A stretch of DNA of 64,000 nt from Antedon mediterranea (Eukaryota > Animalia > Echinodermata). Below are positions 5,448-35,495 of this stretch, piece after piece. The notes under the pieces are model-generated. The model worked only from the letters and a program-made list of their open reading frames with translations. It had not been told where the DNA came from and made no database searches. Each line of letters begins with the position of its first letter. Position 1 is the stretch's first letter. The stretch covers positions 11,713,812 to 11,777,811 of the forward strand of contig NC_092675.1 of NCBI RefSeq assembly GCF_964355755.1. Direction: 5' to 3'. The position numbers and the translations under genes are program-made.

Positions 5448-5929
5448 CTAGGCTCGCGCTAACCGCTCGCCAATTCGCCAATGGCGACTGGAGTCTCCAT
5501 TTGGCGAAAATAATTATTGCCTCGTTCGCCAAATTGGCGAAAACACATTTCCAAGCCTAGGCCTAGCCTGATCGGCGTGACTTCTTATGGGAGCGACAAT
5601 TCGCCACACTTCGGTACTTTCTGACTCGGGTACACGTTTTACCACCACAGCATTTTATGTGACGACGTCACGATCGCCTTATTCATTTTTTTTTAGTTCT
5701 GTTTAAACATGCTCAGAGCGTGCCTCGATGACGTTTTAATGACACACGGTTAATGTGATTGGTTCGTGGCCGGCCGTCGTCGACGTGATGATGAGCGAAT
5801 AAAACTAAAAGGGGAAGTCCCTATTCTTCGACGTAGAAAATGAACTTCGAGAAGAAAATGTAAACAGCAACATGTGGACGAATACTTCCGTAAACGAGGC
5901 TGTTCTGTTATTTAAAAAGGGGAATTTTA

Positions 5930-6462
5930 AATTTAACAAAGTAATTACCTCAATAGTATAATGTTAACATGTTTAATTTTATTTCCCTTTCGATTATTCT
6001 AACCGAAAGTTGCGCTTTAAATTGAATAGCTAAGAAACAGCGTATACTACAAGTACAACGGGAACCCTGGCCAAAGCGCGTTTCGGCCGCCTACATAGAA
6101 TGGGTTACGGCCGCTGCATAGCAAATTCAAAGCTTCTTAAATTTCTGCGGTACATTTCTTCCTAACGTACTTGTTTTATATAATAGATTGATAAATATTC
6201 CACTTATTAAATAATTTAATAAATCGGTAAAATTGACGTTTCGAAGCAAATATTCCATGATGAGAGGCGACATTTTTCGACATGCCTTGTGTGCGGCGAA
6301 GACTAGTTCAGAAAATGGAACAGTCCACTGCGGGGGTTATCCAATCATTAATTAACGCGCTAATACATGCATACCATGCACATTGCCTGGGCGACGGTAA
6401 TTTAGTAATAAGCGGAGAACGGAATCCCCCGTAAGGAAAATGGTAAACACTGATATTTATGG
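5930..6462. repeat. ~530-bp repeat, inverted copy at ~13139-13684
   Basis: e.g. gtaaggaaaatggtaaacactgatatttatggta vs taccataaatatcagtgtttaccattttccttac; colinear over the whole length. Confidence 0.9.
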
Positions 6463-8221
6463 TAGGGATTATTTTCGTAAGTGGTTGGTCTTGTTGGCCT
6501 CTTCGCACGACGACCACTCAAAGACAAATAAAACAATGTAGTTTATCAAACAGAAATATAAATTAGGTTCAATTCAATACTAAATTCCCCAGATTTTGAT
6601 AATGAGAAAGACTCAAAAATGTAATTTTTATCGGAAAAATTGACATTTGAGGCGGATGTACAGTACATAATAATAATAACCGATTTACATATCAAAATAA
6701 AGAGTATTTAAAGCCTGATAACATGCAACAAAAATTACTCCACCACCTATTATGGTCGCCGAGCGATCGTGTTTTGAAAATGGGTTGGTGTTTTCCGAAG
6801 TTATTTTTAGCGCGCGGATTTCGGCTCGCCAGCTTTTGTACCTCCTTTTTAACTCGCGTTTTCTATTAAAATATTTAATAAACATAAATTAAAAATATAT
6901 ATAAATAAAATCTTAAACAAGATCTTTCTATACATATAAATTTTATTCACTATGGCTACATAAGAAATAGTATATTTTTAACTTCAAAGACATGTCACTT
7001 TTTGAAATTTCACGAACGTGTTAAAATCGCCATAACGAAAATCCGCTTCATCGGGATACCTACTATAATCCAGGAGTATTAGACAAAAAAAGGGCCAAAG
7101 GTAGAAATAAATATGCTAAAGCTGAATTTTTCAGGATAGGTCCCCAATGTTGTCTGGAACAACATACTAAAAGTCCCCGGGTTTCCCTGTTGTGCTTCAA
7201 CCTGATTGGGCCATTTTTCAAAATGGCGGCCATCTTAACATTATTTACCATATTTTGACAACCAGTAGGTGTAAGTAAACAATTTTGGTGTCAAAATACT
7301 TAGAAGACCAATATTTACAGTATATTCACTGTAATCACAGCTGTTTCAACCAATGTAAAATAAATAGAAAAAGTCAAGCGCCCTCAATATTGTCAGACGG
7401 CGATATGTGCCTGAGCGTGACGCCGCGCGAGTGGTTGAATCTCGTTCAACTTTCGCGACATTTGCAACTTTTATAACTACACTTTAAATTAATTTAATCA
7501 ATTTCGTCATAAATATTATAAAACCATTTTTATACTATTTGTTAGAAAATAAGATTCTTAATTACCGATTTTTTGGAAATAGTAAGTAATTAAGCATAAC
7601 AACAAGTTTACAAAATTATTTACACCCGGAAGTTTTAAAAATTAACATCGATCGGCCTAGCAAATGTAAACAATGGAAAGTTTGAAAAAATGCTTGTCAA
7701 ATTGTACACTTTTTGTTTTTATTCGTAATTTTCATAAATACTTGGAAAATCTAGGTAAAAGTTTGATTATATATGCTTACATGAGACATTGAATTGTTAG
7801 GAGGTGACGGTGAAAATCTCAAGAAATTTTCATTTAAAAACTCGACTGTTTTGTTAAATGCGAAACAGCGTATTTGGCGAGAGGTCGATGAACGCGGCTG
7901 ATAACCGCTCGCTAGGCTGTACGCAACTAGGCCTAGGTTGTAGCTAGGCCTAGTTGGTACGTATAAGTAGTGTAATCATACTATACATCATTTTAATTTA
8001 CAATAGAATAAATAATAAGCTTAATTATTATCATTGTATTTATTTCAACTGAATATAATTCATCATAAATGTAAAAATTTAGTAAAACTACTAACTACCA
8101 GGCCTAGCTAGGCCCTTAAAATTAAAGCCTAGGCCTATACAAAAATACTCAAACTACTGTATGATAAATATAATATAACATTAAAGGTTGGTAAAATTAA
8201 AATTTCTTTTCTTTTTTGTAG

Positions 8222-11722: not shown

Positions 11723-13138
11723 GCCTAAATAATTAAAATAATGTAACATTTCCAAACTCATTTGGGTCAGCTGTCACATGAAAGGCAGTGTTGCAACTAG
11801 AGTAGACATAAGCCTAAGCCTAAAAATGACACAATTTGAAACGGCCATAGCTCAAAAATTCAACCATCACCTCTCGACCATTACTATGTTATAACATTCA
11901 CAGATAACTAAATTATCATGCAGTACCAAAGAATTAGAGTGAAAATTACATTTTTTAAAGATACGGACAAACAAACATGTACCTAATTTGGAAATGTCAC
12001 TCACGTGCGTAAATTGGTCTATGCTTGTAATTTATGGTCTACCCTTCCATTAATTTTCAGCGTTACATTCCTTCTTAAAAACAAAACGACAACGTGCTTG
12101 TTTCATCCAGGGACTCTTTAATGAATATTCATATTTTTAGCGACCCTTTATTTTTTTATCTCATTCTCATTGGCTGTTTAAAACATGTCTTTAAATGACG
12201 TTTGACTCCACTCTGCACACGTGGATTTGTAAGTAATTGTTTATGTATTGTTACTCCAGCGATACGACTTGTAACGTTGAGGGCGCATGACTTAATTCGT
12301 ATGTTTGAAACAGCTGTGTAATGGAGAAGTTTTTTAAAAAATGACCGGAAATGCCTGTTTTGACCTTTGACCATAAATTTGTACATAAGCGAAATTGGTG
12401 TCAAAATACTCAGAAGACCCATATTTATATTCATTATAATGGAAAAGTTTTTAAAAAAATGACCGGAAATGCATGTTTTGAACTTTGACCCTAAATTTGG
12501 ATTATCTCAATATCTCATCAACGACTGGCCGTAGAGACTTCAAAGTTTTCCCAAATTATTCGGAATGCCCAACTTTCTATTTACTTTAATGAAAGAAAAA
12601 TACCAAAAACCTTTAGAAACCTTCTATTTTGACCTTTGAACTATTGACGTAGGCATATTTATTTTTATAGACATCTTGGTGATCGATAGGATACGAAATT
12701 GGTTTCAAAATTTATAACTTTGATCCTAAATTTGGGTTATCTCAACACCGCATCAACTGCTGGCCGTAGAGACTTCAAAATTGTCCTAAATTAAGCAGTG
12801 TGCCCAACTCTCTATTCACTGTAGTTAAAGAAAAATACTAAAAGCCTTTAGAAACCACCTATTTTGCCATTTGAACTATTGATCTGGCCAATACAATATT
12901 TTATATCATAATTAATATATAGAAATCTTGGTGATCGATAGGAATACATAAGCGAATTTGTTGTCAAAATATTCCAAAACACCCATGTTTTTTTACCTTT
13001 GACTTTAATCACTATATTATAATTTAATAATTTAAGTCCCAAATAGCATGATGGACATATCATACCATTCATCATGCCATGAGATGTCAAATTTATCTGA
13101 AACAGCCTAGAAAAAATGTCCGATGGACGAATAATAAT

Positions 13139-13684
13139 ACCATAAATATCAGTGTTTACCATTTTCCTTACGGGGGGGATTCAGTTCTCCGCTTATTACT
13201 AAATTATCGTCGCCCACACAATGTGCATGGTATGCATGTATTAGCGCGTTAATTAATGATTGGATAACCCCTGCAGTGGACTGTTCCATTTTCTGAACTA
13301 GTCTTCGCCGCACACGAGGCATGTCGAAAAATGTCGCCTCTCATGGAATATTTGCTTCGAAACGTCAATTTTACCGATTTATTAAATTATTTAATAAGTG
13401 GAATATTTATAAATCTACTATATAAAGCAAGTACGTTAGGAAGAAATGTACCGAAGAAATTTAAGAAGCTTTGATTTTGCTATGCAGCGGCCGTAAGCCA
13501 TTCTATGTAGGCGGCCGAAACGCGCTTTGGCCTGTGTTGCCGTTGTATGTCTACGCTGTTTCTAGGCCTAAATTTTATTCCGTATATTTCAATTCAAAGT
13601 GCAACTTTCGGTTAGAATAATCGAAAGGGAAATAAAATTAAACATGCTACAATTATACCATTGAGGTAATTACTTTGTTAAATA
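13139..13684. repeat. Inverted copy of 5930-6462
   Basis: Direct reverse-complement match. Confidence 0.9.
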
Positions 13685-14063
13685 AAAAATTTCTTCCCGA
13701 TATTTCTTAGGCAGAATTTAGCGTCAGGCTTTTATTTAGATCTTGCTAGCTAGGGGCCTATCTTAACTTGTAGTAGGCGCGGCCGAGTCTACGTTCGGCC
13801 CGGCGCTCCAAATGGAATCGAACACATAATAAGCACGGGCTTAATTCTTATTTTTGGCGGTTCGAAAATCAATTTAAATAACATATGATTATAAATATAA
13901 CTTTAAATACTAGAATTATTAAAAAAATGTATACTTACGAAAAATAATATTTAATGAAAAGAAACAATACCCACACAGTTTTTTAACGCAATATTTTTTT
14001 TTTTCACATTTTAACATTTTTTAACAATATTTTATGTTGTATTTCAGAATTACCGAGACGGGT

Positions 14064-14625
14064 TGGTGAATTTTGTCCAAGATGGGGAAATTTCTGTCCA
14101 GAATGGGGAAATATTTTGTCCAGAATAAGGACAAAAGCGATAGGTGGCGCTATAATCGTGTCCAAGATGGGGAAGCTGTCCAATATAGAGAAATCCGATT
14201 TGTCCAAAATGGGGAAATTTCTGTCCAAGATGGGGAAGTGGTGGCGCTATATCGTGTCCAAAATGGGGAAATTTCTGTCCAGGATGGGGAAGTGGTGGCG
14301 CTATATCGTGTCCAAAATGGGGAAATTTCTGTCCGGGATGGGGAAGTGGTGGCGCTATATCGTGTCCAAAATGGGGACATTTCTGTCCAGGATGGGCTTA
14401 TGCTGTGTCAAAAATAGGCAGCTGTCCATATAGAGAAATCAGATTTGTCCAAAATGGGGAAATTTCTGTCCAGGATGGGGAAATTTCTGTCCAGAATGGG
14501 GAAGTGCTGTGTCCAAGATGGTGAAGCTGTCCAATATAGAGAAATCCGATTTGTCCAAAATAAAGACATTTCTGTCCAAAATGGGGAAGTGCTGTGTCTA
14601 AAATAGGGAAGCTGTACAATATAGA
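14064..14625. repeat. Left subterminal inverted repeat of the Zisupton, built of ~20-bp/60-bp units
   Basis: Repeated tgtcca(a/g)(a/g)atgggga motif; 60-bp unit present 3 times. Confidence 0.9.
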
Positions 14626-14799
14626 GAAGGCAAAACATTAACACAACATAAGAAACTTTTTTTTGTTTTAAAAACTTTAATTAAGTTCACACTTCTAATC
14701 TGAAAACATTACAAAATGTACACAATAATAACAGTACTATGTTAACACTTTAAAAGTACATTTGAAGTGGAAAAGTGTTCTATTAATTAAATAATTAAC

Positions 14800-16690
14800 A
14801 CCGTTATCAGCTAATTTTAAGTATAATAAACATTTAGTGAGGGATGTGGTTCCAATTTACTTCTAAAGTAAATTTTCACTGAATGTATACATTTATCTGA
14901 CGTTAAAAACTACAGTATATTATATTAAATTCCAACCATAAAAACCACAACAGAAAGTAGTACCGTCACCGCCCTTATTATACCACATCAAGAAAGAGTA
15001 CAGGATATTTATTACTATAATTAATACAGGTTGTCACTTTTTTTTTTATCATCTACCAATTTCTTTTTATTTCCTTCTCTATCTCTACCTTTTTATCTTT
15101 TTTTAAACCTTTTTTTCGACCACAGACCACGAGTATTAATCTATCGTCCCACAGGTAAAATTCAGGCTCAAAATAGGCTCTTATCCCCTTAAAATAATTA
15201 CGGTACTCAGCCTGGAAACAGTTTCAAAGTACAGGTTGGTAAATATGACACCTTTATCAGCTATTTTTAAGTATAATGAACATTTATTGAGTGAAATGGT
15301 TCCAATTTACCTCTAAAGTAAATTTTCACTGATTCTATACATTTTTATCTAACGTTAAAAACTACAGTATATTATATTAAATTCCAACCATAAAAACCAC
15401 AACAGAAAGTAGTACCGGCACCGACATCATTATACCACATCAAGAAAGCGTACATGATATTTATTAATATAATTAATACAGGTTGTCGCTTCTTTTCCTT
15501 CTTTTTATCCTTTTTCTTTTTTTATTTTTTTCTTTATTTTTTAAATATTTTTTTTACCACAGACCGCGGGTATTAACCTTGAGTTATTATAGTAACTCAA
15601 TGGTTTAAAATCAAACGTACACGCTGAATCATTAATTTCCAACTATAAACAAAGTAATATCATTGACAAATCGAGCTATATTTGGCCTAATTTTTCTCAT
15701 TTTACAATAGTATACGAGTGTTTGCATATTAGTAACATTAGTGCTTTAATTGCGTTATTTCCTACTCCAAATAGGCATAGTTTAGGGCTAATGATTATGT
15801 TGATATTAAAATATGATTACAGCCAGTGCTTTGCATTTTCTGTAAGGTTTATCATGCTCAATTAGATTTATTTTTTTGGTTAAATTTCTCTCAAAAACTT
15901 TGTGTCTATACAAATGTTATTAGTGAGCAACTATTCTATCAATGTGTATTCCTTTAAATTTACCAGGGAGTGAATTGTTATGCTGATTTATTATGTCTAC
16001 TTATGTTAATCGTTAAAAACTACTGTATATTATATTAAATTCCAACCATAAAAACCACAAAAGAAAGTAGTACCACATCAAGAAAGAGTAGGCCTACAGG
16101 ATATTTATTAATATAATTAATACAGATTGTCCCTTCTTTTCCTTCTTTTTATCCTTTTTATTTTTTTATTTTTTTCTTTATTTGTTTTTTATTTTTTTTT
16201 TTGTATTTATTTTTTTTTTTACCACAGACCGCGGGTATTAATCTACAGTCACATGCAGTAATTCCACATAGAATTTCGACCACATGATGGAATCCTTGAG
16301 TTATTATAGTAACTCAATGGTTTAAAATCAAACGTACACGCCAACTCATTAATTTCCAGCTATAAACAAAGTGATATCATTGACAAATCGTGTGTCTGCA
16401 TATTAGTAACATAGTATTAATTAGTGCTTTAATTGCGTTATTTCCTACTCCAAATAGGCATAGTTTAGGGCTAATAATTATGTTGATATTAAAATACGAT
16501 TACAGCCAGTGCTTCGCATATTCTGTAAGGTTTATCATGCTCAATTAGATTTATTTTTTTGGTTAAATTTCTCTCAAAAACTTTGTGTCTATACAAATGT
16601 TATTAGTGAGCAACTATTCTGTCAATGTGTATTCCTTTAAATTTACCAGGGAGTGAATTGCTGTGCTGATTTATTATGGCTACTGATGTT
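14800..16690. repeat. Internal duplications downstream of and including the ORF 3' end
   Basis: aaattccaaccataaaaaccacaa block at ~14927, ~15379 and ~16037; ~15578-16000 duplicates ~16295-16684, including the last ~27 codons of the ORF. Confidence 0.85.
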
Positions 16691-19600
16691 CTTCCCATTT
16701 TCATGAAAACTTTCCCATGCTGCCGGTCATCTCTAATTCCATCAAGAAAAATTTTCATATGGATCATTTCATGAGCCATAGTATTAAGCAATTCACTCGT
16801 CGAATCTGCAGCATTTTTACTATTAATATTTATTATTGATGAGGAACCAATTCTATTCTTATGCAATTGAAGTGTTTCTCCGTAAACATTACCTAAAGGT
16901 ACAAGAAACACATGATCCTCGGCCTTGGGTAACTTTCCCAAGTATACAATAGTATTTATGTAGTTGTAGAGCGAATGTATGTCCTTAACCATCTGTTGGT
17001 CTTGCTTGTGGGTCTCTCTTCTTGCTTCGGTTCGTAACCGCTCTTGTTGATCATATATTTTCTTTTTATGAGTACATCTTTCGCACATGGCATTTGTTAT
17101 GCATTCCTTATGATAAGGCTTGTGGCATGTAGAGCAGTTGATGACTTCTGGAGTGATAGGTGTGTTGCAGCAGTTTGTCAGAGGTATTGCGGACATCCTT
17201 GATGCAGGGGCATTGTGGCAGTTATCCTTTTCTAAATATCCACGCAAATCTCCCTTCTCAAATGCTTCAACAAGCTTTCGCCTAACAACCCTCTCGTCTT
17301 CTTCAAATCGTAGTGTTGATGGATCTTTTCCTGCACACAGTGCAGCAGCAAATGCTATACAAAAATGGCCACAAGTGTTACTTGCATAAGGTTGTTGCTG
17401 TACACCATGTACGTGAAAATTCATGTTGGGAACGCCGGGTTCCATCAACTTGCATGCTACCTGAGTCAATTCTAATGGGTAATTTCTTGGATTCAATGTC
17501 TGTAAACTATCGTACACATCGACGTTACTATTGGTAAGTTGTTGGTACCAATGCTTGTCTGATATTGTAATCCAGTGCGAGTTTCTCAGGTTTATAAATT
17601 GTACATATTGTGTAGTCTTGACAAAATTGTGCATTTGCTGTTGATAGATGGTGTCTTGTAATCCACGTGTTTCTGGATAGTTTCTCTTTAGAATTATGTT
17701 GGCGGCATTTATAATCCTATCATCTACCTCATTATGTCTCTCTTCTACAAGCTTTTTATGGTGTAACCTTAGTTGGTATTCCTCCAGCCACCAGTCATTG
17801 GGTTCATCAGTCGTTTGTACTACAACATTTGACTTGGGCGTTGAAATAATCAGTCTTCCAAGACTATCTTTCGTTGTTTTCAGACCGAACGACTTGTTAA
17901 TGTACTTAATATGGTTGCCATTTAATTTATTATTTCGACGGTGTACTAAGGATTTTACCATAAATAAATGATTCGCTATTGACATTTCATTTAAAAAATG
18001 CTTGGACTTATTTAATTCGGAATAAAATTGTTCTGCAACTTGTGTATTTGTTTTAGACTTCAATTGTGGTACAAAATTAATTTTCCGCAAAATTTCAGTT
18101 TCACTGTTTGTGTTAGCCTCATGAAATCGGTCAAAAAGCGCGTACGTGCTGCTTTGTCCAGTTACAGGATGCCCGGTTTCCGACGTCGCACGAAGCCCAT
18201 TAAGCCATGGCATGTCCATTAATAAAGTATTAGCTTTTGCACACCGAATATTCTCCTCTGTAGAATCAGCTACTCTTCCTTCGAACGGAAAGAACATTGG
18301 CTCTGTTTGACCATCATAATGCAAATTGTTACCAAATTTTGCAACAATGTGTGCCATGTCCACAATTATTATATTTGGCTTATGTTTCATCGACATGATT
18401 ATGTCTGTGTAATCTCGAGGCGATTCTGCTCGTAGGACAAACTTAATTCCGTAGACTACTCCATGGGGACAATGTGATGTTAATATTCCCCCGGAACACC
18501 CCCAGATTTTCTTCATTATTTTATTGAAATTATTATGGTTCTTGGCTAAAGCCTCCCTTATACTACAAATAATGTCCAACTTACTTCCCTTTGATGCAAG
18601 ATTGATAGTTTTAGCTATTTTCTTGACTTCCTTAACAGTAGATTGGTGGAGCATCTCAAAAAGTCTCTCCTTACTCATATGTCTGCAGTCAGCAGTCAAG
18701 TTACCGTCTTCTGAAACTTTCCTGAATTCTGTGTTGTAAATTAAATTGTCTTTTCTTGTATGCTCACCGATAAACGGAGACCATTCGTTCAGACCAGCCG
18801 TTATTGGAAAAGGATTTACTGCTGACTGATGCATGAGGCCTCTAGATAGTATATGCAAACTAACTCGTTCATAAAATTCTATGCAATCTACTTTTTCTTT
18901 ACATTTATGAGGCTTGCCAAGTTCAGACAAAGCTGTCCTAAAATGAACCTTTCTGTTCACATCCATGATCATTATTGTGGGATGGTAACCACATATATTG
19001 CAATGCATATCTTCATTGATGTTTGATTGAGCTTCAAATGCTAAATAAGCATTCAACACCAATGTTTGATCAATTTCTATGCCCGATGTTTCGCATATCT
19101 GCTTAACAATGCTACCAGTAGCTATGTGATGATCCACGCCTGACCTAAGCCATAGGCAAACATCAAATCCAATACAAAATGAATCATTATAGTTATAAAT
19201 ACCAAGTTCATAATCCTTGTAATGGTAAGTCATTGAACATTGTGGGCACTTTTTGTGATACACTAATATATCGTGCAAGCCATTCATTGAAAGGAGCCTT
19301 CCAGTTCGATATGCTTTTTGAGGTGGACCTAAATTAACATTGCATTTCTGACATACTTTTTCTGACGGAACGACCTCTTTAGACCACATTCCGGTTTTTG
19401 GAATAAACTCCTTGATCTGCAATGGGATTCGTTTATGGTTGAAAATGTATATAGCTTCGTCTTTAGCCTGATCCGTGACCGTTTTGCTATTATTGTCAGT
19501 TTGTTGTGTTTGTTCGGTTTCATTTGACTTTATGATTGAATCTTGTGATAAACGCCAAAGGCACATGCCTTTATGTACACATGGAACTTTGCGTTTGCAG

Positions 19601-20619
19601 CATTTGCAGTCAATTGCTTTCGTTTTAGCATCATATGTACATACTACCCGTTCAAGCTGTGCATAATAGTGACTTTCGCCCTCAAAGACCGACAGATGCT
19701 GGTAACGTCCATCACTAAAGTAGGCTACAGGTGGTGTGTTATGGTATTTTGCCAAATCATTTAAGGTCTTACATTTTTCAATTGTACTAGATGACAAAGC
19801 TTTAAATGACCCTGAAACAGATAAATTTTCTAGAAAAATCTCGTCTAATGGAGTGAACGAACTATATACCGCCCGTGAAGCTTCTTGTAGATGTTGGCAT
19901 TCAAAAACAGGCAAGCCGCTTGCTCCTGCAACATCCATGATAACACGACAATCTGTTAATTCACAGAAAGAAAACCTTGGATTTGGACCTATATTGGTTT
20001 TCTGGACATGACAGGGGTATGCAACACCACCATGGGAGCTCCTTCTAACAAGGAATATTCCTTTATTTACATCTATACAGATTCCTGTAACTTTGTTGGG
20101 TTTAGGTTTTTTGTTTTTTCCATATTCCATCTCATATTTTCGCTTTGAAGAGGGATCTTTACTATTGCATGTGTTATTGTCTTCCTTCCCTTCTTGTTCA
20201 TCAGTAGCTGTTTCATTTATTTTGGTGTTACTATCTGCATTTTCTTTGATGTTCGTTTGCTTGTTTCCTTTATCAACATTGGTTTCACAGAAATCATGAT
20301 TTTTACTTTCATTACATTCAAATCTATGAGTATCACGTAGGTGTTTCAGCATCCTGTCTCTTCTACACATTATTTTATTACACTCCGGGCAATGATAGTG
20401 ATACCTATCAGTGTCCGTCTGGGGCTCATGTGGAAGTTTGCATGCTATTATCAGGAAAATGCCATAATTAATTCCATGATTTAAATGTTTTGTTTTTATA
20501 TGTCTTTTTAACTTTGATTTAAACTTCCAATTGTTTAGCACACAATAATGGCATGAATGACTATCTGCTATCTCATTAATTATCCTATCTGTATCTATTA
20601 ACTTTATGGAAAATGCCAT
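16603..20619 (-). CDS. Zisupton/KDZ transposase polyprotein (~1338 aa from the first ATG): C2H2 fingers, SWIM, CxC-like, SAP, KDZ core, Ulp1/C48 protease, PHD-like finger, SprT-like metalloprotease
   Basis: Uninterrupted ORF. Motifs: CPECNK...LKHLRDTH; CKCCKRKVPCVH (SWIM); TVKEVKKIAKTINLASKGSKLDII (SAP); GGILTSHCPHGVVYGIKF..AESPRD, IIVDMAH, DRFHE, NTQVAEQ (KDZ/HMGXB3-like); HWITI..VYDSL..QQQ..TCGHF (C48 triad); AHEMIH..HGKVF (SprT-like). ATG in accATGg context at 20619. Confidence 0.92.
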   Translation of the reverse strand: MAFSIKLIDTDRIINEIADSHSCHYCVLNNWKFKSKLKRHIKTKHLNHGINYGIFLIIACKLPHEPQTDTDRYHYHCPECNKIMCRRDRMLKHLRDTHRFECNESKNHDFCETNVDKGNKQTNIKENADSNTKINETATDEQEGKEDNNTCNSKDPSSKRKYEMEYGKNKKPKPNKVTGICIDVNKGIFLVRRSSHGGVAYPCHVQKTNIGPNPRFSFCELTDCRVIMDVAGASGLPVFECQHLQEASRAVYSSFTPLDEIFLENLSVSGSFKALSSSTIEKCKTLNDLAKYHNTPPVAYFSDGRYQHLSVFEGESHYYAQLERVVCTYDAKTKAIDCKCCKRKVPCVHKGMCLWRLSQDSIIKSNETEQTQQTDNNSKTVTDQAKDEAIYIFNHKRIPLQIKEFIPKTGMWSKEVVPSEKVCQKCNVNLGPPQKAYRTGRLLSMNGLHDILVYHKKCPQCSMTYHYKDYELGIYNYNDSFCIGFDVCLWLRSGVDHHIATGSIVKQICETSGIEIDQTLVLNAYLAFEAQSNINEDMHCNICGYHPTIMIMDVNRKVHFRTALSELGKPHKCKEKVDCIEFYERVSLHILSRGLMHQSAVNPFPITAGLNEWSPFIGEHTRKDNLIYNTEFRKVSEDGNLTADCRHMSKERLFEMLHQSTVKEVKKIAKTINLASKGSKLDIICSIREALAKNHNNFNKIMKKIWGCSGGILTSHCPHGVVYGIKFVLRAESPRDYTDIIMSMKHKPNIIIVDMAHIVAKFGNNLHYDGQTEPMFFPFEGRVADSTEENIRCAKANTLLMDMPWLNGLRATSETGHPVTGQSSTYALFDRFHEANTNSETEILRKINFVPQLKSKTNTQVAEQFYSELNKSKHFLNEMSIANHLFMVKSLVHRRNNKLNGNHIKYINKSFGLKTTKDSLGRLIISTPKSNVVVQTTDEPNDWWLEEYQLRLHHKKLVEERHNEVDDRIINAANIILKRNYPETRGLQDTIYQQQMHNFVKTTQYVQFINLRNSHWITISDKHWYQQLTNSNVDVYDSLQTLNPRNYPLELTQVACKLMEPGVPNMNFHVHGVQQQPYASNTCGHFCIAFAAALCAGKDPSTLRFEEDERVVRRKLVEAFEKGDLRGYLEKDNCHNAPASRMSAIPLTNCCNTPITPEVINCSTCHKPYHKECITNAMCERCTHKKKIYDQQERLRTEARRETHKQDQQMVKDIHSLYNYINTIVYLGKLPKAEDHVFLVPLGNVYGETLQLHKNRIGSSSIININSKNAADSTSELLNTMAHEMIHMKIFLDGIRDDRQHGKVFMKMGRTSVAIINQHSNSLPGKFKGIHIDRIVAH

Positions 20620-21989
20620 GGTGTTTATACAATTAAAATTAACAATAGAGTAGAAATCAATAAACAATCAATGATTACAGTAGCCTATTCAATACAAACA
20701 TTACATTACAAAATGTACCGGTACTGACAAGTGTTCCTCTTGCAAAACTTTATCAGTGGCCCTACGAATAACAAATAACCAATCAAAAGCACCTGTTAAT
20801 ACAAAAAAAACAATGAAAATGATGTGACTACTTATTCTAATAAAATTACATAGAATTGTAATAAAATGAAAATATTTTACTAGGATATGGATTTATTTAT
20901 TATTTTATCATCAGGTTACGGTGATTGTTTTTTTATTTCAAAGTAAAATACTCAAATTCACGTTTATAGTTCATTAATTAAATTAATAGATCATAATTTT
21001 TTTTAATGTCACCAACCAAATATACAGTACACTCATCTTGACCAACTTAATTTACGACATGCATTTACATATTATGCAGATCGGAATATTATATCACTCT
21101 TAGATATGATAAATAATTACTGTATGTGATTTTAAACAAACTATTCTTGAAAAGACCTAATAATAAACAGTAAACAACATGTAGTTACCATTAGTACTTC
21201 GAAAATCTTATTTGGTTAATAATAGCTTTGAAAACAAGTAAAAACCAACATAAATAAAACAATCACTATTTGTAGTTGAATGACCGATGACAACAGTGTT
21301 CCGTTCTTTTTGCAAAATTGCATCAAAATCTCTTCAATGAAAAGCAGCCACACCTAATACAAAAAAATGATATAAAGTTTAGAATTTCCCAAATTGTATT
21401 GCAAAAGATAGGACATCAAACTAGTTAAGCACTTACTTTCACTACTTTTAGGCCCTGTCCTCCCATTAAAGAAAAGGGGAATACCCCCCCCCCCCCCACA
21501 CCCTCTATTTCAAAATACTGGAGTAACCACTGGCCTAACTAGGCCCGGTACCTGATGAATAATTAGTTTGCATCTTTCAGTATGCCTAATATGCGGGAGA
21601 AAATTGCAGACTTGCTATGATCAAGCCACGTGCATAGTGGAGTAACGACTAGGCCATTAAGGGCCTAGTAATTAGTGCAGCATTTTTCTTTCATTTGTAT
21701 ACATCATACATGATTATTATTATTGATTAATATGGTTCAACATACCTTGATGTGCAGACTCGATAGTAGGCCTACTGTACCATACGTCTTAAATATTAAT
21801 TGAATGCTTCCATAACTGAGACATTCCCTATATATTGGATAGTCTCTATATGCGGGAAAGATTTTCGACACGATGTAGCGCTAATCTTGACAAAAACTTT
21901 CCTCGTTTTGAACATTTCTGAATTTCTCTACATATTTGACAGTTTCTCTTTTATACAATTCGGAAAAATTGAATTTATTAGGCCTTGGA

Positions 21990-22925
21990 TACTGTAGTTT
22001 CTCTAATTTGGACACAGCACTTCTCTATTCTGGAGAAATTTGTCAAAATTATATTTTTCTGCTGAAAATTTCTCTATTTTAGAAAACACTTTGGACAAAT
22101 CGGATTTCTATATATTGGACAGTTTCTCTATTTTGGACACAGCCCTTCTCTATTCTGGACAAAATTTACCCATTTTGGACAAATCGGATTTCTCTATATT
22201 GGACAGCTTCTTTATTTTGGACACAGCACTTCCCCATCCTGGACAGAAATCCCCATTTTGGACCAATCGGATTTCTCTATATTGGACAGCTTCGCTATTT
22301 TAGACACAGTATTTCCCCATTCTGGACAGAAATTTCTTCATTTTGGACAAATCGGATTTCTCTATATTGGACAGCTTCTCTATTTATGACACAGCATTTC
22401 CCCATCCTGTACAGAAATGTCCCCATTTTGGACACAATATAGCGCCACCACTTCCCCATCCTGGACAGAAATTTCCCCATTTTGGACAAATCTGATTTCT
22501 CTATATGGACAGCTTGCCTATTTTTGACACAGCATAAGCCCATCCTGGACAGAAATGTCCCCATTTTGGACACGATATAGCGCCACCACTTCCCCATCCT
22601 GGACAGAAATGTCCCCATTTTGGACACGATATAGCGCCACCACTTCCCCATCCTGGACAGAAATTTCCCCATTTTGGACACGATATAGCGCCACCACTTC
22701 CCCATCCTGGACAGAAATTTCCCCATTTTGGACACGATATAGCGCCACCACTTCCCCATCTTGGACAGAAATTTCCCCATTTTGGACAAATCGGATTTCT
22801 CTATATTGGACAGCTTCCCCATCTTGGACACGATTATAGCGCCACCTATCGCTTTTGTCCTTATTCTGGACAAAATATTTCCCCATTCTGGACAGAAATT
22901 TCCCCATCTTGGACAAAATTCACCA
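21990..22925. repeat. Right subterminal inverted repeat of the Zisupton
   Basis: Reverse complement of the left arm, with more 60-bp units and a degenerate inner extension. Confidence 0.9.
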
Positions 22926-25900
22926 CACCTATTGGAATTACCTACCTGTCAATATAAATAACCTCACTAAAATACATATTACATTTTATGCAATGCAAAA
23001 AAAAAGAAGTTAATTCACACATTGGTTCAAAAGTTATGAATCATTTAAAGACAGGAACTTTTTGGGCATTTTTGAGACATTGGGAAAATCACGCGTAAAA
23101 AGCCCTCGGACGAATTTTGTAGGGCGATATCTAAAAAAAAAAATGTTGAGGACACCCAAAAAAAATTTTTTCTTGTACAACTCTGTTGTATCTATGGGTT
23201 TGGAAAAAATAAGAACTTTAAAATTATTAGTATAAAAGTTATAACCCTTCAAAAATGGGTTCAAATATAATTAGAAAAAGTGCCATTTTTTAAGCAAAAA
23301 TCACTGTTTTTTGGGCACTTTAACGGACCATAACTTTTGAATGGATAATCCGATTTCAATCATTTAAATTGCAAAAGTTTATGTTCAGTAAGTTCCTTCT
23401 GATTAACTGAAAGAAAAAGTACCATCATTAATTTGAATTTTTACATTGGGATACCTAATTATATCGAGCAACAAGTAGTAAGGTCTAGGCTAATAATTTA
23501 TCTACAGTATTTGATTAGGGATTAGGCCTACTAAATAAGGCAGCGCCTGTTTTTGTGGAATTCAGATTTTGGGGCATCTATCTAAGCCTTGGCTAGGCCT
23601 AGTGGTCGTAGTGTCTACAAGGCTAGGCCTAAGCCTGACGCGATCTATGGCTATTCATTTCGTAAGCGTTTTTTTGTTTTCGCGAATAATAACGGCGACT
23701 CCCCGGTGGTACAAGGTTAGGCCTAGACCTGACGCAATTTGTTGTTATTTATTTTCATAATTCTTTATGTTTCACTAAAATAACGACAAACCCCCGGGGC
23801 GGGGGGGGGGGGAAATACCCCGGGGGGGGGGGGGGTGAATTTGCCGACCGGCACTCCAAAAAGCTGGTGACATCCCTGAACAGATTTTCATGCCCTTATT
23901 TTATTAACCATCATAATTATAGTCCTGAAGTATTTTCGATTTTTTGAGAATTTTGATTAGAAAAAATACAGAGAAAAATGTTCACATCTTAAAGATAAAT
24001 GCAATAATTCTTTTAAAATTAAATTGCATCATATCAGATAAGAATCGGAGTTATGACTAGAGCCTAAAATGAGACTTAGACTGAGACCTTGATAAATGGT
24101 TGGGTGGGTGACTATGTACAGTGTGCAGTTTTAGACAATTTAAAAAATGTTATAAGATGAATTATGTACAGTACTCCAGACCTATATACACAAAGAAATG
24201 TAATAGTGCAGCTCAATTGAAAAAAAAAAAACAATTTTACCAATAAGTGTGTGTCAAATCAACCAGTAGTGGTCTCTGCTATATATTAAATGGCACTGCC
24301 GAAGAGGAAACATTTTAGAATTGGTAGCTCCAAAGTTTAAACATGGACATTAGCCATAATAGAAAGGGCGTGGCATTTTTTGGAGGACTAATTTCTAACC
24401 TTAATATTTCAAGAATAAATAAATAATAACATTTGTTTGGTTACTAATGAATAAAAGAAGTGAAAACAGGCTAAAGCCCAAACAGACAGTAAAATGTATC
24501 ATATATAGTTTAAAATTGGTGCTTGGTTTGTCTGTTTAGCATCTGAGCAATTTGGAATGAATTTTACCTCTCATGGCAATGACCATACTGATGAATTGTT
24601 AGATTCTGTCTGTCTTTATGTCAACTTAAATTTAACTTTTTGCATCTAAGCCCTCCCTATGGAGAGCACGGGCTATTGTCGGTTTATACAGGTAAGCTAG
24701 GCACGAAATAAGACTAATTCTCATTAAAATGTAATGATTAAAGTCAAAGGTCAAAACACTTTCAATCGCATTTAGTACATTATTTCTATAAGAGTAAACA
24801 GAAACATGGGTGTTTTGGAGTATTTTGACACCAAATTCCCTTGTGTATTCCTATCGATCACCAAGATTTCTCTACAATTTTGGTATAAAATATGACCAGA
24901 TCAAGGGTTCAAAGGTCAAAATAGAATGTTTCTAAAGGAATTTGGTATTTTTCTTTCATTAAAGTGAATAGAAAGTTGGGCATTCCGAATAATTTGAGAT
25001 ATTGATATAATCCAAATTTAGGGTCAAAGTTTAAAACATGCATTTCCGGTCATTTTTTTAAAAACTTTTCCATTATAATGAATATAAATATGGGTCTTCT
25101 GAGTATTTTGACAGCAATTTCGCTTGTGTACTCCTATCGATCACCAAGATGTCTATAAAATTAAAATATGTCTAGGTCAATAGTTGAAAGGTCAAAATAG
25201 AAGGTTTTTGGTATTTTTCTTTCATTAAAGTGAATAGAAAGTTGGGCATTCTGAATAATTTGGGACAACTTTGAAGTCTCTACGGCCAGTCATTGATGAG
25301 ATATTGAGATAATCCAAATTTAGGGTCAAAGGTCAAAACAGGCATTTCTGACCATTTTTTGTTAAACTTTTTCATTACAGTGAATATAAATATGGGTCTT
25401 CTGAGTATTTTGACACCAAGATTGTTTACTTACACCTACTGGTTGTCAGCATATGGTAAATAATTTTAAGAAGGCCGCCATTTTTAAAAATGGCCCAATC
25501 GGGTTGAAGCACAACGGGGAAACCCGGGGACTTTTAGTATATTGTTTCAGACAACATTAGGGACCTATCCTGAAAAATTCAGCTTTAGCATATTTATTTC
25601 TACCTCAAAGTCTAACCTGGGATTTGTTTGTCTTCCTATTATATTATATGCCAAGATAATATAGTTCTACATGCCATGTGCTTTTTTCTCTGAGAAATAT
25701 TTATTATATGCCAAAAAAACGGTTTTTTCTCTATATGAAGCCTTTATTATTTAAATCTTTTAGAGAAAAATCACACATACCATAAAGCAGGTCCATTTTT
25801 TTATTTCATTTTTTAAATAAAATTGTGAAAATTACGTGAGGCTCAACTACAAAACCACCATTTTGGGATATGATGTCATCGTAAGCCAATCAAAGCTGAG

Positions 25901-28234: not shown

Positions 28235-28484
28235 TGCGTTCTGTTAAACGCCGAGTTAACGGACGATAGAGGACAGTATATAGAGTATGCATCATTCGAA
28301 TACCCATCATTCCCGGAGTTTACTGAGTTTTTGTGTCCGTTAAACGCCGAGCTAACGGACGATAGTATTAAAATGACAGCATAATATAGAGTATAGCATC
28401 ATTCCACAGGGTATATTACTGAGTTTTTGTGTCCGTTAAACGCCGAGCTAACGGACGGTAGTAATAAATGACAGATGGAGTATA
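28235..28484. repeat. ~85-bp satellite, left part (interrupted by the hAT-like insertion)
   Basis: Unit ctgagtttttgtgtccgttaaacgccgagctaacggacgatagtatt...; continues at 39445. Confidence 0.85.
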
Positions 28485-29585
28485 CAGGGCTGAAAATTAA
28501 CCTTTAAACCATAGTGGCCAGCAGGGCCAGTTGAAGTTGAAGGATGGTCGCCCTTATTAAAAATGGCTGGCCCTTATTAATTTTTTGTACATTTTTTTTT
28601 TGCCCAAGGGGGGGGGGGGAATTTATCCCCACCCCTCCCAATTATATCATTTATTACTTTTGATAATTAAATTACTCTCCCCAAAATTCCTCCCTCCCCC
28701 ACTCCCCTCCCACACCCACATTCACACACAATATTTTCCGTGGGGATCGTCATTGAAAAAAATCAATCCAATTTTTTGTATGGCCTGGGTAGGCCTAGAT
28801 TGGGTTTCAGGAGCCTGCCTGGAGAATCCTGACCAACATGTCTTTAGCCTAGGCCTAGCTTTTCTAGCCTAGCTTGTTGGCCTAGAAATCAGACAAAAAA
28901 CTACCTGTATTTCATAAATTATACAATTCTAACATGCAATAGCCATTAAAATATTGATAATAAGTTACAAAGTATCATTTTAAAATAATTAAGAAAGATA
29001 TTTAAAGGACAACTGTACCGAGGACCATATTTTAAAAACGTATTAGGGGTATACATATGATTTCAGAACCATCGCGAAATCGAGGATATCGCCGCACGCG
29101 CTTGCCGTACAGCCGTCGCCGTAAATTGCTGTGACGTCACAGGTGCATCGCATAATCTACTTAATGAGTTTTCGCTGTTGTTACCATACAATAGAATAGG
29201 TACCGTCACTTCAATTGCTTATTTAACCTTTTAAATTACTTAAATTTGCCAAAATGTTTTCCTGGTATTTTGAAGAAACACTTCAATATCCAGATAGACA
29301 AAACAAACAATAAAACAATTCAACTTTTATATTTTTTACGATTTATTTAAAAAGTGTGTTTACTAGAAATGTTCGCGCTTTGCGAGAGTTGTCTATGGGA
29401 CCCGAAGAGTAGCTAGTAGAAACATGACGTATGACGTTCTGGAATCATTCAACCATATCGGACTCAAAACTTTTTCTCTGCTAGCTAGCGATTTTTGGGC
29501 CGTGTGCGAGCTTCCTCCTCCTCGTGTGTGTGACGGTGGTGTGATCAACATTGTGTAGAGTAGTAGTAGAGAGAGGGAACTGAAA

Positions 29586-32500
29586 ATGCCAGCGTGTGTT
29601 GTTTCAAATTGTCGGGAATACGAAAAAGCCCGATTAGATGGAATACCCTTTCATACCTTTCCAAATGATAAGGCGTTGGCCAGAAGATGGTTAACTGTTA
29701 TTAGAAACGCTAATTTGAATCCCGGCTGTAAGCCGTCGACATACAGAACTTTGCGAGTTTGTGGAAAGCACTTCATGAAGTCAGATTACCTACCTGACCC
29801 AAAACACGATCTAGCTCCGCATCTTTACAAGCCAAAACACCGCCTGAAACCTGACGCAGTACCAAGTATATTTGCATTTAACAAACCTAGTAGTACAACT
29901 ATGAGAAGTGCATTTAAAAAAAGACAGGAGGCTGGTAATCAAGAATCGGTAAGAACAATGATGAATTTACCACCAGAACAATAATATTAATAATTAGGCC
30001 TAATATATCAAAGTAAATTATAGGCCTAATAAGTTCTTTTTTCTTTTTATGTTTAGGCTAAGCCTAAAAAAAAATTAAAAATTGACTGGGCCTACTACTC
30101 TGTACATTATTAAAATATTACATTTATGATATAGGCCTAGGGATTTTAGGCTATGCCTAGCCTATAAATCCAAACAAGAAAAAATATAGCCTAGGCCTAT
30201 GCTAGATAGTATTACTACTACTACTAGCTAGAGATAGGCCCTTTCTTAGTGCATTATTTTTTTTAAATGAAAAATGCTATAATGATGATTACTACTAACT
30301 AGGCCTACTAACTACTAGCCATCATTTGGTGATTGAGAACAACAACAATTAACACTAACTATAGTTTAAAAAAACAATTCTATTTTTTGTTACTGTGTAG
30401 AAATGGTATTAAAGAAAAATAAATATATTTAGTTTTTCACAGGCTCAGAATCATCGCATACATCACATGATGTCCAAGAAAAAAAATCAGTACATGGCAA
30501 TGATGAGGTATGATTATTTATGGTTTATCTATCTTCACCAACTTGTGAATGCGTAGTGTATGTAATATCAAATTCTGTAAACTATATAATATTATAATTT
30601 TACAGGACTTAAATGTAAGCTTTTCATCATCACATGGAAATGAGTTGATGGGATGGATACCAGAAGAGGACAGTTCTTCTTCCTCTGAAGAAGAAATAGA
30701 AGTAGTAGATGATAATGTTACAGGAAAAGTGATAGTCAATGTTGATAGTGTGCTTGAAATGTTTAAGCGATGCCAAGAATGCGGTCAGAAGATAATATCA
30801 ACAAATGTGTTATACAGGGGAGCAAAAATAATTGTACATTGGCAATGTACTGAATATCACTTTGGCAAATGGGAAAGCTGTCCAGATGTTCGTGGAATGG
30901 CAGAAATCAATTTACTTACAGCCTCTGCTATTTTGTACAGTGGAAACACATATCAAGCAATTAATAATTTTGCTAAAATTCTTGATATGCATTTTTTATC
31001 ATCATCAAGTTTTTATCAAATTCAAAAATGTTATTTGTTGCCAGTCATAAATGAAGCATATAAGGAACAACAAGATGTGATGATTGCTGAACTCATTTTA
31101 AGAAGTTTGGATAATGAGACTATCTCAATTTTGGGGGACGCCCGGTCAGACTCGCCAGGGTATTCCGCAAAATATTCTACGTACTCTTTTATTGAAGAGA
31201 AAAGTGACAAAATTGTTGATGCTCGGCTGATACAAGTGACGGAATGTTCCAGCTCAGTAGCAATGGAAAAGGAAGGTTTCATCAGAAGTTTAGAGTTTTT
31301 GTTGGGTCATGGCATCAACATCAAAACAATCACAACTGACAGATCACCATCAATCAGAAAAGTTATGAAGGACGAATACTGGGAGATATCACATCAGCTT
31401 GATTGCTGGCATGTTTGTAAAGGTATGATTGATACAGTAAAATAATTTTCTAACAAACTAAAACCAAATTAAATCCTTCATTTTTTTTACTCTCATCAGT
31501 ATATAAATAAGCACCATATACATATTGTACAAATGAGCATTATATGAGTTTGCTCTAATCTATCTCATCTCGCACAGTGTAATTTCAATTGACACTTCTT
31601 CTAGTCTACTAGTGTAGCACCAGCGAGTACAGTATATACTGTAATCATGTTTGTAAAGTTCATAAATTGTTTTACTAATACTATATTGTATATTTTATCA
31701 AATATTTCAGGCATTAAAAAGAAAGTCTTGGCAAGTGGTAAAAAGAAGGGAAATGAGCACCTATTATTGTGGACCAAGAGCATAACAAACCATTTGTGGT
31801 TCTGTTGTGCAACTTGTAAAGGTGATGTCCAGGTATGACCACTAGTGAATTTTTTTTTCAATCGACAGGGGTGAAGAGGAAAAGCAAAAGTAATGAAACT
31901 CTCATCTTGTGATGTGCTTAACAAGCCCTGTCAATATACTGTAAACAAAACAAAAATATATATTTATGTACATCATCATATTGATAATTGATATATAAAA
32001 TACTCAAAATTAAAAAATCAGTTCTGCTTTATACTGTGTTTATTATTAATAAGTACTATATAATTAATACAGAAATAAAAATAAAGTTGTGTCCAATAAA
32101 AAATATTGCAGTACTATATAAACTGCTCTTATACTAGTATAAAAGAAAAAAGAGCACCATCATCATCATTCTCTAAATTGAGCTTTACACTATTTTTTTA
32201 CTAATGTTTAGGTACTCAAAAACAGGTGGAAATCAATTTTAAATCACGTGGTAAATGTTCACAGATGGGAGGAAGATGGGATTGAGAATACCTGTGCACA
32301 CAGTGCCCTAACAGAAGAAGAAGCAGAAAGCAAGATATGGCTAGAATATGATTCGCCAGCCTATGATGCTTTGAAAAAAATTGTACTGGATAAAAGATTA
32401 GATAATGATCTTGGTCAACTTGGAGAATTTAAGCATACTGGTGGGTGTGAAATGTTTTTTGTGTAGACAATAAGAATTAAACGTTAGTGTAAAACCCATT

Positions 32501-33108: not shown

Positions 33109-33177
33109 ATGATTATGATGGTGATGATTTAAATACTGTTGTTATACAAAGTTTATTTTTCAGTTTAATCGAACAAA

Positions 33178-35441: not shown

Positions 35442-35495
<54 letters not shown>

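What the first reader, a model, noticed from the sequence alone, without database searches (positions are those of the whole stretch)
16603..17800. Transposase fused to a SUMO-protease, a PHD-like finger and a SprT/SPRTN-like metalloprotease
Seen: the C-terminal ~400 aa of the intact ORF carry a full C48 triad (HWITI, VYDSL, QQQ..TCG), a PHD-like finger, then YNYINTIVYLGKLP...INI...LLNTMAHEMIH...HGKVF (HEMIH at 16759-16773). Established: Zisupton proteins carry SWIM, SAP and Ulp1-like domains; the N..F/Y.G.LP...HExxH...HGxxF pattern is the SprT-like family (SPRTN, GCNA), which cleaves DNA-protein crosslinks, often SUMO-marked. I know of no description of a SprT domain on a Zisupton. Inference: the element may carry a two-protease toolkit, to reverse SUMO-dependent silencing and to clear chromatin proteins or its own post-integration complex, or to process its own polyprotein.
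Basis: partly seen in the sequence, partly recalled or inferred. Interest (0 to 1): 0.92.

Follow-up and report, generated by a model that had tools for sequence, protein, structure and literature searches.

The report
Transposase carrying a Spartan-like zinc protease
An intact 8.9-kb animal-type cut-and-paste transposon encodes one large transposase whose tail carries a SUMO-protease-like domain, a worn PHD finger and a predicted zinc protease resembling the DNA-repair enzyme SPRTN; relatives keep the same tail, and it likely cuts proteins bound where the element moves.

Summary
Confirmed. The intron-free ORF at 16603-20619 (-), 1338 aa, lies in an 8,880-bp element with subterminal inverted repeats and an 8-bp target-site duplication. 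Its order is zinc fingers, SWIM, CxC4, a Zisupton-like core with SAP, then C48 (H1015/D1037/C1083), a degenerate PHD finger and a SprT-like domain (H1283-E-x-x-H1287, H1301). SprT-like passes Pfam's cut-off. All 4 hits in 1.84 billion representatives are SprT-like. A model built from transposon sequences only matches SPRTN best (Z 10.1). Four relatives carry the whole architecture in one ORF, and more in broken or partial form. The SprT part shows dN/dS 0.20-0.26 among three close relatives. No activity was tested. Ten literature searches showed no SprT-transposase fusion, but Repbase/Dfam and the two founding papers were not available. This scan noted the same architecture twice before, in dead copies in other genomes; this copy is intact. 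New variant of a known kind.

The parts
14047..14054 (.). 8-bp target-site duplication, left copy (GAATTACC)
   Evidence: Only 8-mer repeated in the tested flank windows; about 0.07 expected by chance
14055..22934 (-). Whole element, 8,880 bp, between the two duplication copies
14061..14628 (.). Subterminal inverted repeat downstream of the ORF, starting 6 nt inside the end and built of 21- and 54-bp units
   Evidence: 333 nt at 100% with the other arm; gapped alignment; tandem units
14788..16690 (-). 3' non-coding region with internal duplications (14788-15142 with 15240-15579, 84%; 15353-16007 with 16011-16690, 78%). The second pair holds a decayed copy of the last ~28 codons of the ORF
16603..20619 (-). 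Transposase ORF, 1338 aa, no introns, no stops
16606..16983 (-). SprT-like zinc metalloprotease domain, aa 1213-1338: H1283, E1284, H1287 and third ligand H1301; no SPRTN-type zinc-binding subdomain after it
   Evidence: Pfam PF10263 above cut-off; 4 of 4 phmmer hits SprT-like; Atlas 0.95, 28 of 30 hits; model pLDDT 78.9, best fold match SPRTN 6mdx Z 10.1, rmsd 3.0, 102 aligned
17074..17172 (-). Degenerate PHD finger, aa 1150-1182 (C1150, C1151, C1162, C1165, H1170, C1173, C1179, C1182)
   Evidence: Pfam PHD E 0.15 alone; aligned to PHDs of relatives; family profile hits PHD structures down to 5e-8
17251..17790 (-). C48/Ulp1-type cysteine protease domain, aa 944-1123, triad H1015, D1037, C1083
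17875..18987 (-). Zisupton-like transposase core, about aa 545-915, with invariant D553, D736, D754 and E863 as candidate catalytic residues (inferred)
   Evidence: 19 homologs, 27-42% identity, including fish proteins named SAP-domain or HMG-domain-3; invariant columns; Pfam KDZ not hit
18541..18651 (-). SAP-like DNA-binding motif inside the core, aa 657-693
   Evidence: weak SAP_new25 hit, E 0.11; fish homologs hit SAP at 9e-5 to 0.01
19132..19380 (-). CxC4 cysteine cluster, aa 414-496
   Evidence: PF18717 29.3 bits, cut-off 26.9, on the N-terminal piece
19573..19611 (-). SWIM-type CxC...CxH motif, aa 337-349
   Evidence: motif in the sequence, conserved in relatives; no Pfam SWIM hit
20326..20553 (-). 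Two N-terminal C2H2-like zinc fingers, aa 23-48 and 77-98
   Evidence: sub-threshold C2H2 hits; positions
22273..22929 (.). Subterminal inverted repeat upstream of the ORF, starting 5 nt inside the end
22935..22942 (.). 8-bp target-site duplication, right copy (GAATTACC)

Best explanation
This is an intact Zisupton-like DNA transposon whose single protein joins the transposase to a C48 protease domain, a PHD finger and a SprT-like domain, and that domain likely works as a zinc protease held on DNA by the transposase, cutting proteins bound at the excision or insertion site. Shown: the element's structure, the domains, their catalytic residues, their conservation, and selection on them. Inferred: (1) the zinc fingers, CxC4 and SAP bind the inverted repeats, and the acidic core cuts and inserts with an 8-bp stagger; (2) because the SprT domain lacks SPRTN's own DNA-sensing subdomain, the fusion would supply the DNA tether and restrict cutting to the transposition site; (3) the likeliest substrates are the spent transposase complex and nucleosomal proteins there, whose removal lets host repair fill the gaps; (4) the C48 domain would strip SUMO from the transposase or its neighbours, keeping the complex out of SUMO-directed degradation and silencing. 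The tail would be an accessory that raises success, not a requirement.
For: Family evidence: Pfam cut-off passed; 4 of 4 whole-library hits SprT-like; Atlas; SPRTN is the top PDB hit of the transposon-only profile (E 0.04) and the only chain of 48,161 with Z >= 8. Catalytic residues: HExxH plus the third His are kept in 20 of 22 rows listed among domains only 15-23% identical to the window's. Conservation: full architecture in one ORF in P0004, P0005, P0027 and L001; 12 of the 14 metagenome loci with a detectable core also have SprT. Selection: SprT dN/dS 0.26, 0.26 and 0.20 among L001, L002 and L004, against 0.24, 0.19 and 0.62 for the core. The invertebrate branch without SprT also lacks the C48 cysteine (P0006, P0007, P0008, P0010, P0011, P0017), so the two activities may have been lost together. 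SPRTN cuts DNA-bound proteins and itself with little sequence preference, and Wss1 lacks the zinc subdomain (PMC9240642 passages). The C48 profile ranks SENP1, SENP2 and Ulp1 above SENP8 and bacterial deubiquitinases.
Against: No activity, substrate or expression was measured. Foldseek found nothing at E <= 0.001 in the PDB or viral libraries. The model has weak confidence at aa 60-73 of the domain and rests on 13 sequences. Few SprT-family structures seem to be solved (my knowledge), so SPRTN as top hit shows family, not closest kinship. Fish relatives and one invertebrate branch lack SprT. The paired loss of both activities is a single event. One pair of broken copies shows dN/dS 0.86 on SprT (L003/L031). 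ArdC, a plasmid protein with a metalloprotease domain, did not need that activity for its function (PMC7213743 abstract). DDE-type transposases do not form a covalent DNA link (established knowledge), so there is no true crosslink to clear.
Confidence: 0.45

Rival explanations
1. Anti-silencing cassette: both proteases act on host silencing proteins at the element's own chromatin. C48 would remove SUMO from co-repressors and SprT would clip them or histone tails, to keep the element transcribed rather than to finish the transposition reaction.
For: The relatives' PHDs match H3-tail readers best (EBS, PHF2, BPTF) and keep the aromatic residues. Transposon-borne anti-silencing enzymes are proposed for fungal KDZ elements (TET/JBP; PMC12730594 passages). 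The C48 profile is closest to SUMO proteases.
Against: This intact copy's PHD has lost those aromatic residues. The best PHD matches are, from recall, readers of the active mark H3K4me3 rather than of silent chromatin. No expression data were obtained.
Confidence: 0.25
2. Self-processing: the proteases cut the 1338-aa protein into working pieces or switch it off by self-cleavage, limiting over-transposition.
For: SPRTN self-cleaves in disordered regions (PMC9240642 passages). The protein has low-complexity linkers, and a Gly-Gly motif at aa 197-198 is present in the window protein and in 11 relatives (P0004-P0012, P0027, L001).
Against: The Gly-Gly motif is also kept in elements whose C48 cysteine is lost and that lack SprT (P0006, P0007, P0008, P0010, P0011), so it is more likely structural.
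Confidence: 0.15
3. Non-catalytic or near-neutral passenger: the SprT fold serves as a scaffold, decoy or zinc-stabilised binding module, and proteolysis is not its job.
For: The domain is absent from several branches. ArdC precedent. No Foldseek match at E <= 0.001.
Against: The catalytic Glu and three His are kept across very divergent copies, and dN/dS is about 0.2. Dead C48 domains in the same family do lose their catalytic residue, so non-catalytic retention is visible when it happens.
Confidence: 0.15

Closest known systems
Zisupton DNA transposons (KDZ group: Kyakuja, Dileera, Zisupton; Bohne 2012 and Iyer 2014, neither read, known through citing passages)
   Same: 8-bp target duplication, inverted repeats (PMC12730594 passages); SWIM + CxC4 + core order given as the canonical Zisupton structure (PMC11343200 passages); core homology to fish proteins carrying SAP and C48
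   Different: Carries PHD + SprT-like protease after C48; single exon, whereas Zisuptons are described as multi-exonic (PMC9297572 passages); no CxC7 or F-box hit; Pfam KDZ model not matched
Ginger1 and Mutator transposases with Ulp1 (+PHD) tails; OTU tails on Ginger1 and Helitron proteins
   Same: A C-terminal Ulp1 protease, sometimes followed by a PHD finger, on a transposase; a role in SUMO or ubiquitin handling and DNA repair was already proposed (PMC2836005 passages)
   Different: Different transposase; that paper has 0 occurrences of 'metallo'; none of the 55 metagenome loci without a detectable Zisupton-like core and outside the SprT set showed a SprT domain
SPRTN (Spartan/DVC1), GCNA and Wss1 DNA-protein-crosslink proteases
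   Same: Metalloprotease subdomain fold (Z 10.1 to SPRTN, 5.7-5.9 to Wss1); HExxH plus the HG..F third-ligand motif
   Different: No zinc-binding subdomain, basic region, p97-, PCNA- or ubiquitin-binding parts after the protease; instead a closing helix and an LP-x-x-Y/F motif shared by the transposon copies; fused to a transposase; 22% identity
Bacterial and phage SprT-like proteins (PF10263)
   Same: Closest by single-sequence search (unnamed SprT-like proteins, 32-36% identity, E about 6e-4) and by language-model features (phage and bacterial clusters)
   Different: Short proteins of 88-243 aa without the transposon domains; the direction of any transfer was not tested

Membership tests
Zisupton/KDZ transposon | 8-bp target-site duplication | tested here: met
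   GAATTACC at 14047-14054 and 22935-22942; chance about 0.07; 8 bp given in PMC12730594
Zisupton/KDZ transposon | Terminal or subterminal inverted repeats | tested here: met
   333 nt at 100%, starting 5-6 nt inside the ends; 'subterminal' as a Zisupton trait is recalled, not read
Zisupton/KDZ transposon | CxC4 cluster and SWIM finger upstream of the core | tested here: met
   CxC4 above cut-off; SWIM by motif only, no Pfam hit
Zisupton/KDZ transposon | KDZ transposase domain (Pfam PF18758) | tested here: inconclusive
   No PF18758 hit for the window core, for three locus cores or for any of 19 homologs including the fish ones, so the model may not cover this CxC4 branch; invariant D, D, E residues are present; the core was not folded
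Zisupton/KDZ transposon | SAP domain in the core | tested here: inconclusive
   E 0.11 in the window; 9e-5 to 0.01 in fish homologs
Zisupton/KDZ transposon | Mobility (other insertions, empty sites) | tested here: inconclusive
   No host assembly is held. Reads show variant copies in three coded organisms and a likely internally deleted derivative; flanks of other copies were not seen
SprT-like metalloproteases (PF10263) | Profile match above the curated cut-off | tested here: met
   25.8-29.8 bits against 25.6; P0004 26.9; other relatives sub-threshold, 14-23 bits
SprT-like metalloproteases (PF10263) | HExxH plus a third His in HG..F | tested here: met
   H1283, E1284, H1287, H1301; 20 of 22 rows
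SprT-like metalloproteases (PF10263) | Minimal zincin fold as in SPRTN's protease subdomain | tested here: met
   VIA-align Z 10.1, rmsd 3.0, 102 residues, next unrelated entry 7.8; Foldseek gave no E <= 0.001
SPRTN/GCNA orthologs | Zinc-binding subdomain (SPRTN aa 167-214) after the protease | tested here: not met
   The ORF ends 37 residues after H1301 with no Cys cluster; the structural match stops at SPRTN residue 152; domain bounds from PMC9240642
SPRTN/GCNA orthologs | DNA-dependent proteolysis of crosslinked proteins | not testable with these tools
   needs biochemistry
C48/Ulp1 SUMO proteases | His-Asp-Cys triad and oxyanion Gln | tested here: met
   H1015, D1037, Q1074-1076, C1083 aligned with relatives and with SENP1
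C48/Ulp1 SUMO proteases | Specificity for SUMO over ubiquitin or NEDD8 | tested here: inconclusive
   Profile ranks SENP1 (7e-7), SENP2 and Ulp1 above bacterial deubiquitinases (0.01) and SENP8 (0.06); a ranking is not a specificity test
PHD finger, methyl-lysine reader type | C4-H-C3 ligands plus aromatic cage residues (Tyr before C1, Met before C3, Trp two before His; positions recalled) | tested here: not met
   Eight ligands are present but C1/C2 are adjacent, and the window has Asn, Ile/Asn and Pro at the cage positions; most relatives keep them

The most novel reading that the evidence does not exclude
A lineage of animal DNA transposons carries its own SPRTN-like protease that, tethered by the transposase, dismantles the post-integration complex and clears chromatin at the target: a eukaryotic transposon encoding its own proteolytic disassembly step, paired with a deSUMOylase.
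Probability: 0.2. Interest if true: 0.85.

Novelty: new variant of a known kind. Interest (0 to 1): 0.62.

Why it matters
How eukaryotic transposase complexes are removed from DNA after integration, and why so many transposases carry SUMO or ubiquitin proteases, are open questions. A transposase that keeps an intact SprT-type protease next to a Ulp1-type protease, under selection and across divergent lineages, makes both testable with two point mutants. This copy has an open ORF, near-identical inverted repeats and its target duplication, so it can be assayed as it stands, unlike the dead copies that this scan noted earlier. It also widens the known settings of the SprT family to eukaryotic transposons, as far as the papers searched show.

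Tried and rejected
No host genome is held, so copy number and empty sites could not be examined. Folding the 395-aa tail without an alignment failed (pLDDT 35) and was not searched. Single-sequence PDB searches of the tail and of the C48 domain gave nothing significant. A homolog search with the tail alone gave 1 hit, an integrase-type protein with C48. Foldseek gave no E <= 0.001 in the PDB or viral libraries; weak top rows were selecase and SprT-like phage proteins. The viral contig collection held no relative (0 of 170 pattern matches confirmed). The idea that the unknown C-terminal domain of P0017 is a dead SprT was not supported (hhalign probability 0.1%). A single clade of all SprT-bearing elements was rejected (AU p 0.025, 18 of 25 rows, two long branches and five close relatives left out, group named after the first tree); one gain plus a later loss fits. 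The Gly-Gly motif as a processing site was set aside because it persists in dead-C48 elements. No RNA holder was listed; the one run guessed to be RNA is no evidence of expression. Reads were laid on 16560-20800 only, so the element's ends in other copies were not examined. The whole-protein Atlas search gave only a lead (0.80, CxC4 cluster). Iyer 2014 is not held. PMC9179492 held only reference-list mentions, and the GCNA preprint passages had no bearing on transposon-encoded SprT.
Full report
Observation. The window is AT-rich (29-40% G+C) and repeat-rich. One long ORF, 16603-20619 on the minus strand, gives 1338 aa from the ATG and 1354 aa stop to stop.

The element. The ORF lies between inverted repeats that are 100% complementary over 333 nt and extend with gaps to about 570-660 nt. 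An 8-mer, GAATTACC, flanks them at 14047-14054 and 22935-22942. It is the only 8-mer shared by the tested flank windows, where about 0.07 are expected by chance. The element is therefore 14055-22934, 8,880 bp, with the repeats starting 6 and 5 nt inside its ends. Zisupton is reported to have inverted repeats and 8-bp duplications (PMC12730594, passages), and SWIM + CxC4 + KDZ is given as its canonical structure (PMC11343200, passages). The N-terminal part passes the CxC4 cut-off and has a SWIM-type motif. The core (aa 170-930) found 19 homologs among 4,056 candidates, including fish proteins with SAP and C48. Pfam's KDZ model matched neither the window, nor three locus cores, nor any of the 19 homologs. 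I therefore file it as Zisupton-like on structure and homology, with that feature inconclusive. D553, D736, D754 and E863 are invariant in all core rows that cover them (21-25 of 25 rows) and are candidate catalytic residues by inference.

The SprT-like domain. Four lines agree. (1) Pfam SprT-like passes its cut-off, 25.8 to 29.8 bits against 25.6. (2) phmmer against 1.84 billion representatives gave 4 hits at E <= 0.001, and all 4 are strong SprT-like members. (3) The ESM Atlas gave 0.95, with 28 of 30 hits in SprT-like clusters. (4) A model built from 13 transposon-borne sequences only (pLDDT 78.9, pTM 0.77) matched human SPRTN best: Z 10.1, rmsd 3.0, 102 residues, the only one of 48,161 chains at Z >= 8, with Wss1 at 5.7-5.9. 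The same profile has SPRTN as top PDB sequence hit, though weakly (E 0.04). Against this, Foldseek gave no match at E <= 0.001 in either library. The match covers SPRTN residues 40-152 only. SPRTN's zinc-binding subdomain (aa 167-214), which shields the active site and senses DNA structure (PMC9240642, passages), has no counterpart: the ORF ends 37 residues after H1301. So this is a SprT-family protease domain, not a SPRTN ortholog, and its donor is undetermined.

C48 and PHD. The window's C48 is not hit by Pfam or by phmmer against the PDB. It is 35% identical to that of P0005 (E 1e-27), which passes the cut-off. A 9-sequence profile ranks SENP1 (7e-7), SENP2 and Ulp1 above bacterial deubiquitinases and SENP8. 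The relatives' PHDs are canonical and match H3-tail readers. The window's finger keeps eight ligands but has lost the aromatic residues that most relatives keep (the cage positions are recalled).

Conservation of the fusion. Of the 19 core homologs, 3 carry C48 + PHD + SprT (P0004, P0005, P0020); the two best hits are among them. Six carry PHD and a C48 without its cysteine and have no SprT. The other 10 are fish proteins, truncated records or have other tails. A search with the SprT alignment gave 5 hits among 7,995 candidates; all 5 have C48 + PHD + SprT, and one (P0027) also has the core. Of 74 metagenome loci, found by C48-derived patterns, 17 have SprT, 14 have a detectable core and 12 have both. 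Several of these are near-identical copies, so independent lineages are fewer, about half a dozen. L001 holds an intact 1520-aa ORF with all domains. The four catalytic residues are kept in 20 of 22 rows; the exceptions, P0031 and L031, look like broken copies, and four loci gave no row. NG86 dN/dS on SprT is 0.26, 0.26 and 0.20 among L001, L002 and L004 and 0.18 for L034/L051, but 0.86 for the broken pair L003/L031; the core gives 0.24, 0.19 and 0.62 for the first three pairs (pairs under 45% identity not shown). In core trees the SprT-bearing relatives form one branch (100/100, with two truncated records), while the window is a long branch outside it. Rooted on the fish proteins, it is sister to that branch plus the dead-C48 branch, and a single SprT clade is rejected (p 0.025; 18 of 25 rows). 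One old gain and a later loss of SprT together with the C48 cysteine is the simplest reading; two gains are not excluded.

Sister copies. Ten runs from 5 studies and at least three coded organisms hold the ORF or part of it. In 4 runs laid on 16560-20800, many contigs carry frameshifts, deletions and a stop at codon 1232, and in two runs the third zinc ligand is changed. Loose ends at 19249 match window position 21932, which points to a derivative lacking the 5' part of the ORF. These are dead copies throughout, not copies that lost SprT alone. Of 35 substitutions classed (35 of 40 shown, of 149 found; one 5-base block left out), 17 are synonymous against 20-27% expected, P 0.0002-0.006. The subset was chosen by the tool, so this is supportive only. 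The window copy has K650 where 20 of 22 relatives and the other copies have E, a possible sign of slight decay.

Mechanism. I commit, at 0.45, to a DNA-tethered zinc protease that cuts proteins at the transposition site, most likely the spent transposase complex and nucleosomal proteins, with the C48 domain removing SUMO. The structure, domains, conservation and selection are shown; all activities are inferred. Rivals are anti-silencing (0.25), self-processing (0.15) and a non-catalytic passenger (0.15). [quoted passage not shown]

Novelty. Ulp1, Ulp1 + PHD and OTU tails on Ginger1, Mutator and Helitron proteins are in print (PMC2836005, passages). Ten full-text searches were seen as listings only: 40 of 123, 30 of 49, 25 of 56, 8 of 14, 4 of 5, 25 of 98, 15 of 1,616, 9 of 11, 20 of 836 and 20 of 535 papers. 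None of the listed titles or abstract openings described a SprT domain on a transposase, and two Zisupton papers checked had 0 occurrences of 'SprT'. Bohne 2012 and Iyer 2014 were not read, their supplements were not seen, and Repbase/Dfam could not be searched; any of these could hold a prior annotation. This scan has two earlier notes of the same architecture in other genomes, both dead copies. I saw them after stating my reading, and they are not independent support.

Verdict. The feature is real and conserved. It is a new variant of a known kind of transposon, interest 0.62.

Noticed in passing
window 29002-38790: A second element with long inverted repeats (about 480 nt, 99%) and a 298-aa Mutator-like transposase fragment at 30549-31445 (+); no target duplication of 6 nt or more was found at its ends.
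   Followed up: partly
window ~49100-61600: A tandem array of about seven to eight units of 1.5-1.8 kb at 60-94% identity, with a palindromic TTATCCGC...GCGGATAA motif repeated near its start; no ORF of 150 aa or more lies in it.
   Followed up: no
window 39445-40228 and 28291-28476: An 81-96-bp minisatellite with a conserved core, about nine copies plus two distant ones.
   Followed up: no
window 5923-6430 with 13174-13691; 7099-7317 and 12380-12890 with 24888-25605: Further inverted-repeat pairs (81-97%), probably other non-autonomous elements around the transposon.
   Followed up: no
P0021 (named Tubulanus polymorphus by its source): A partial Zisupton-like core followed by a Josephin deubiquitinase domain and PHD fingers instead of C48: another protease swapped into the same position.
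   Followed up: no
P0006, P0007, P0008, P0010, P0011, P0017: A branch of related elements whose C48 domain has Ser or Thr in place of the catalytic Cys but is retained with an intact PHD; P0010 and P0017 end in an unidentified ~130-aa domain.
   Followed up: partly
L005-L074, mostly one large assembly: Dozens of C48 + PHD modules without a Zisupton-like core; in two loci they lie near pogo-like DDE_1 (L035) or MULE (L048) ORFs.
   Followed up: partly
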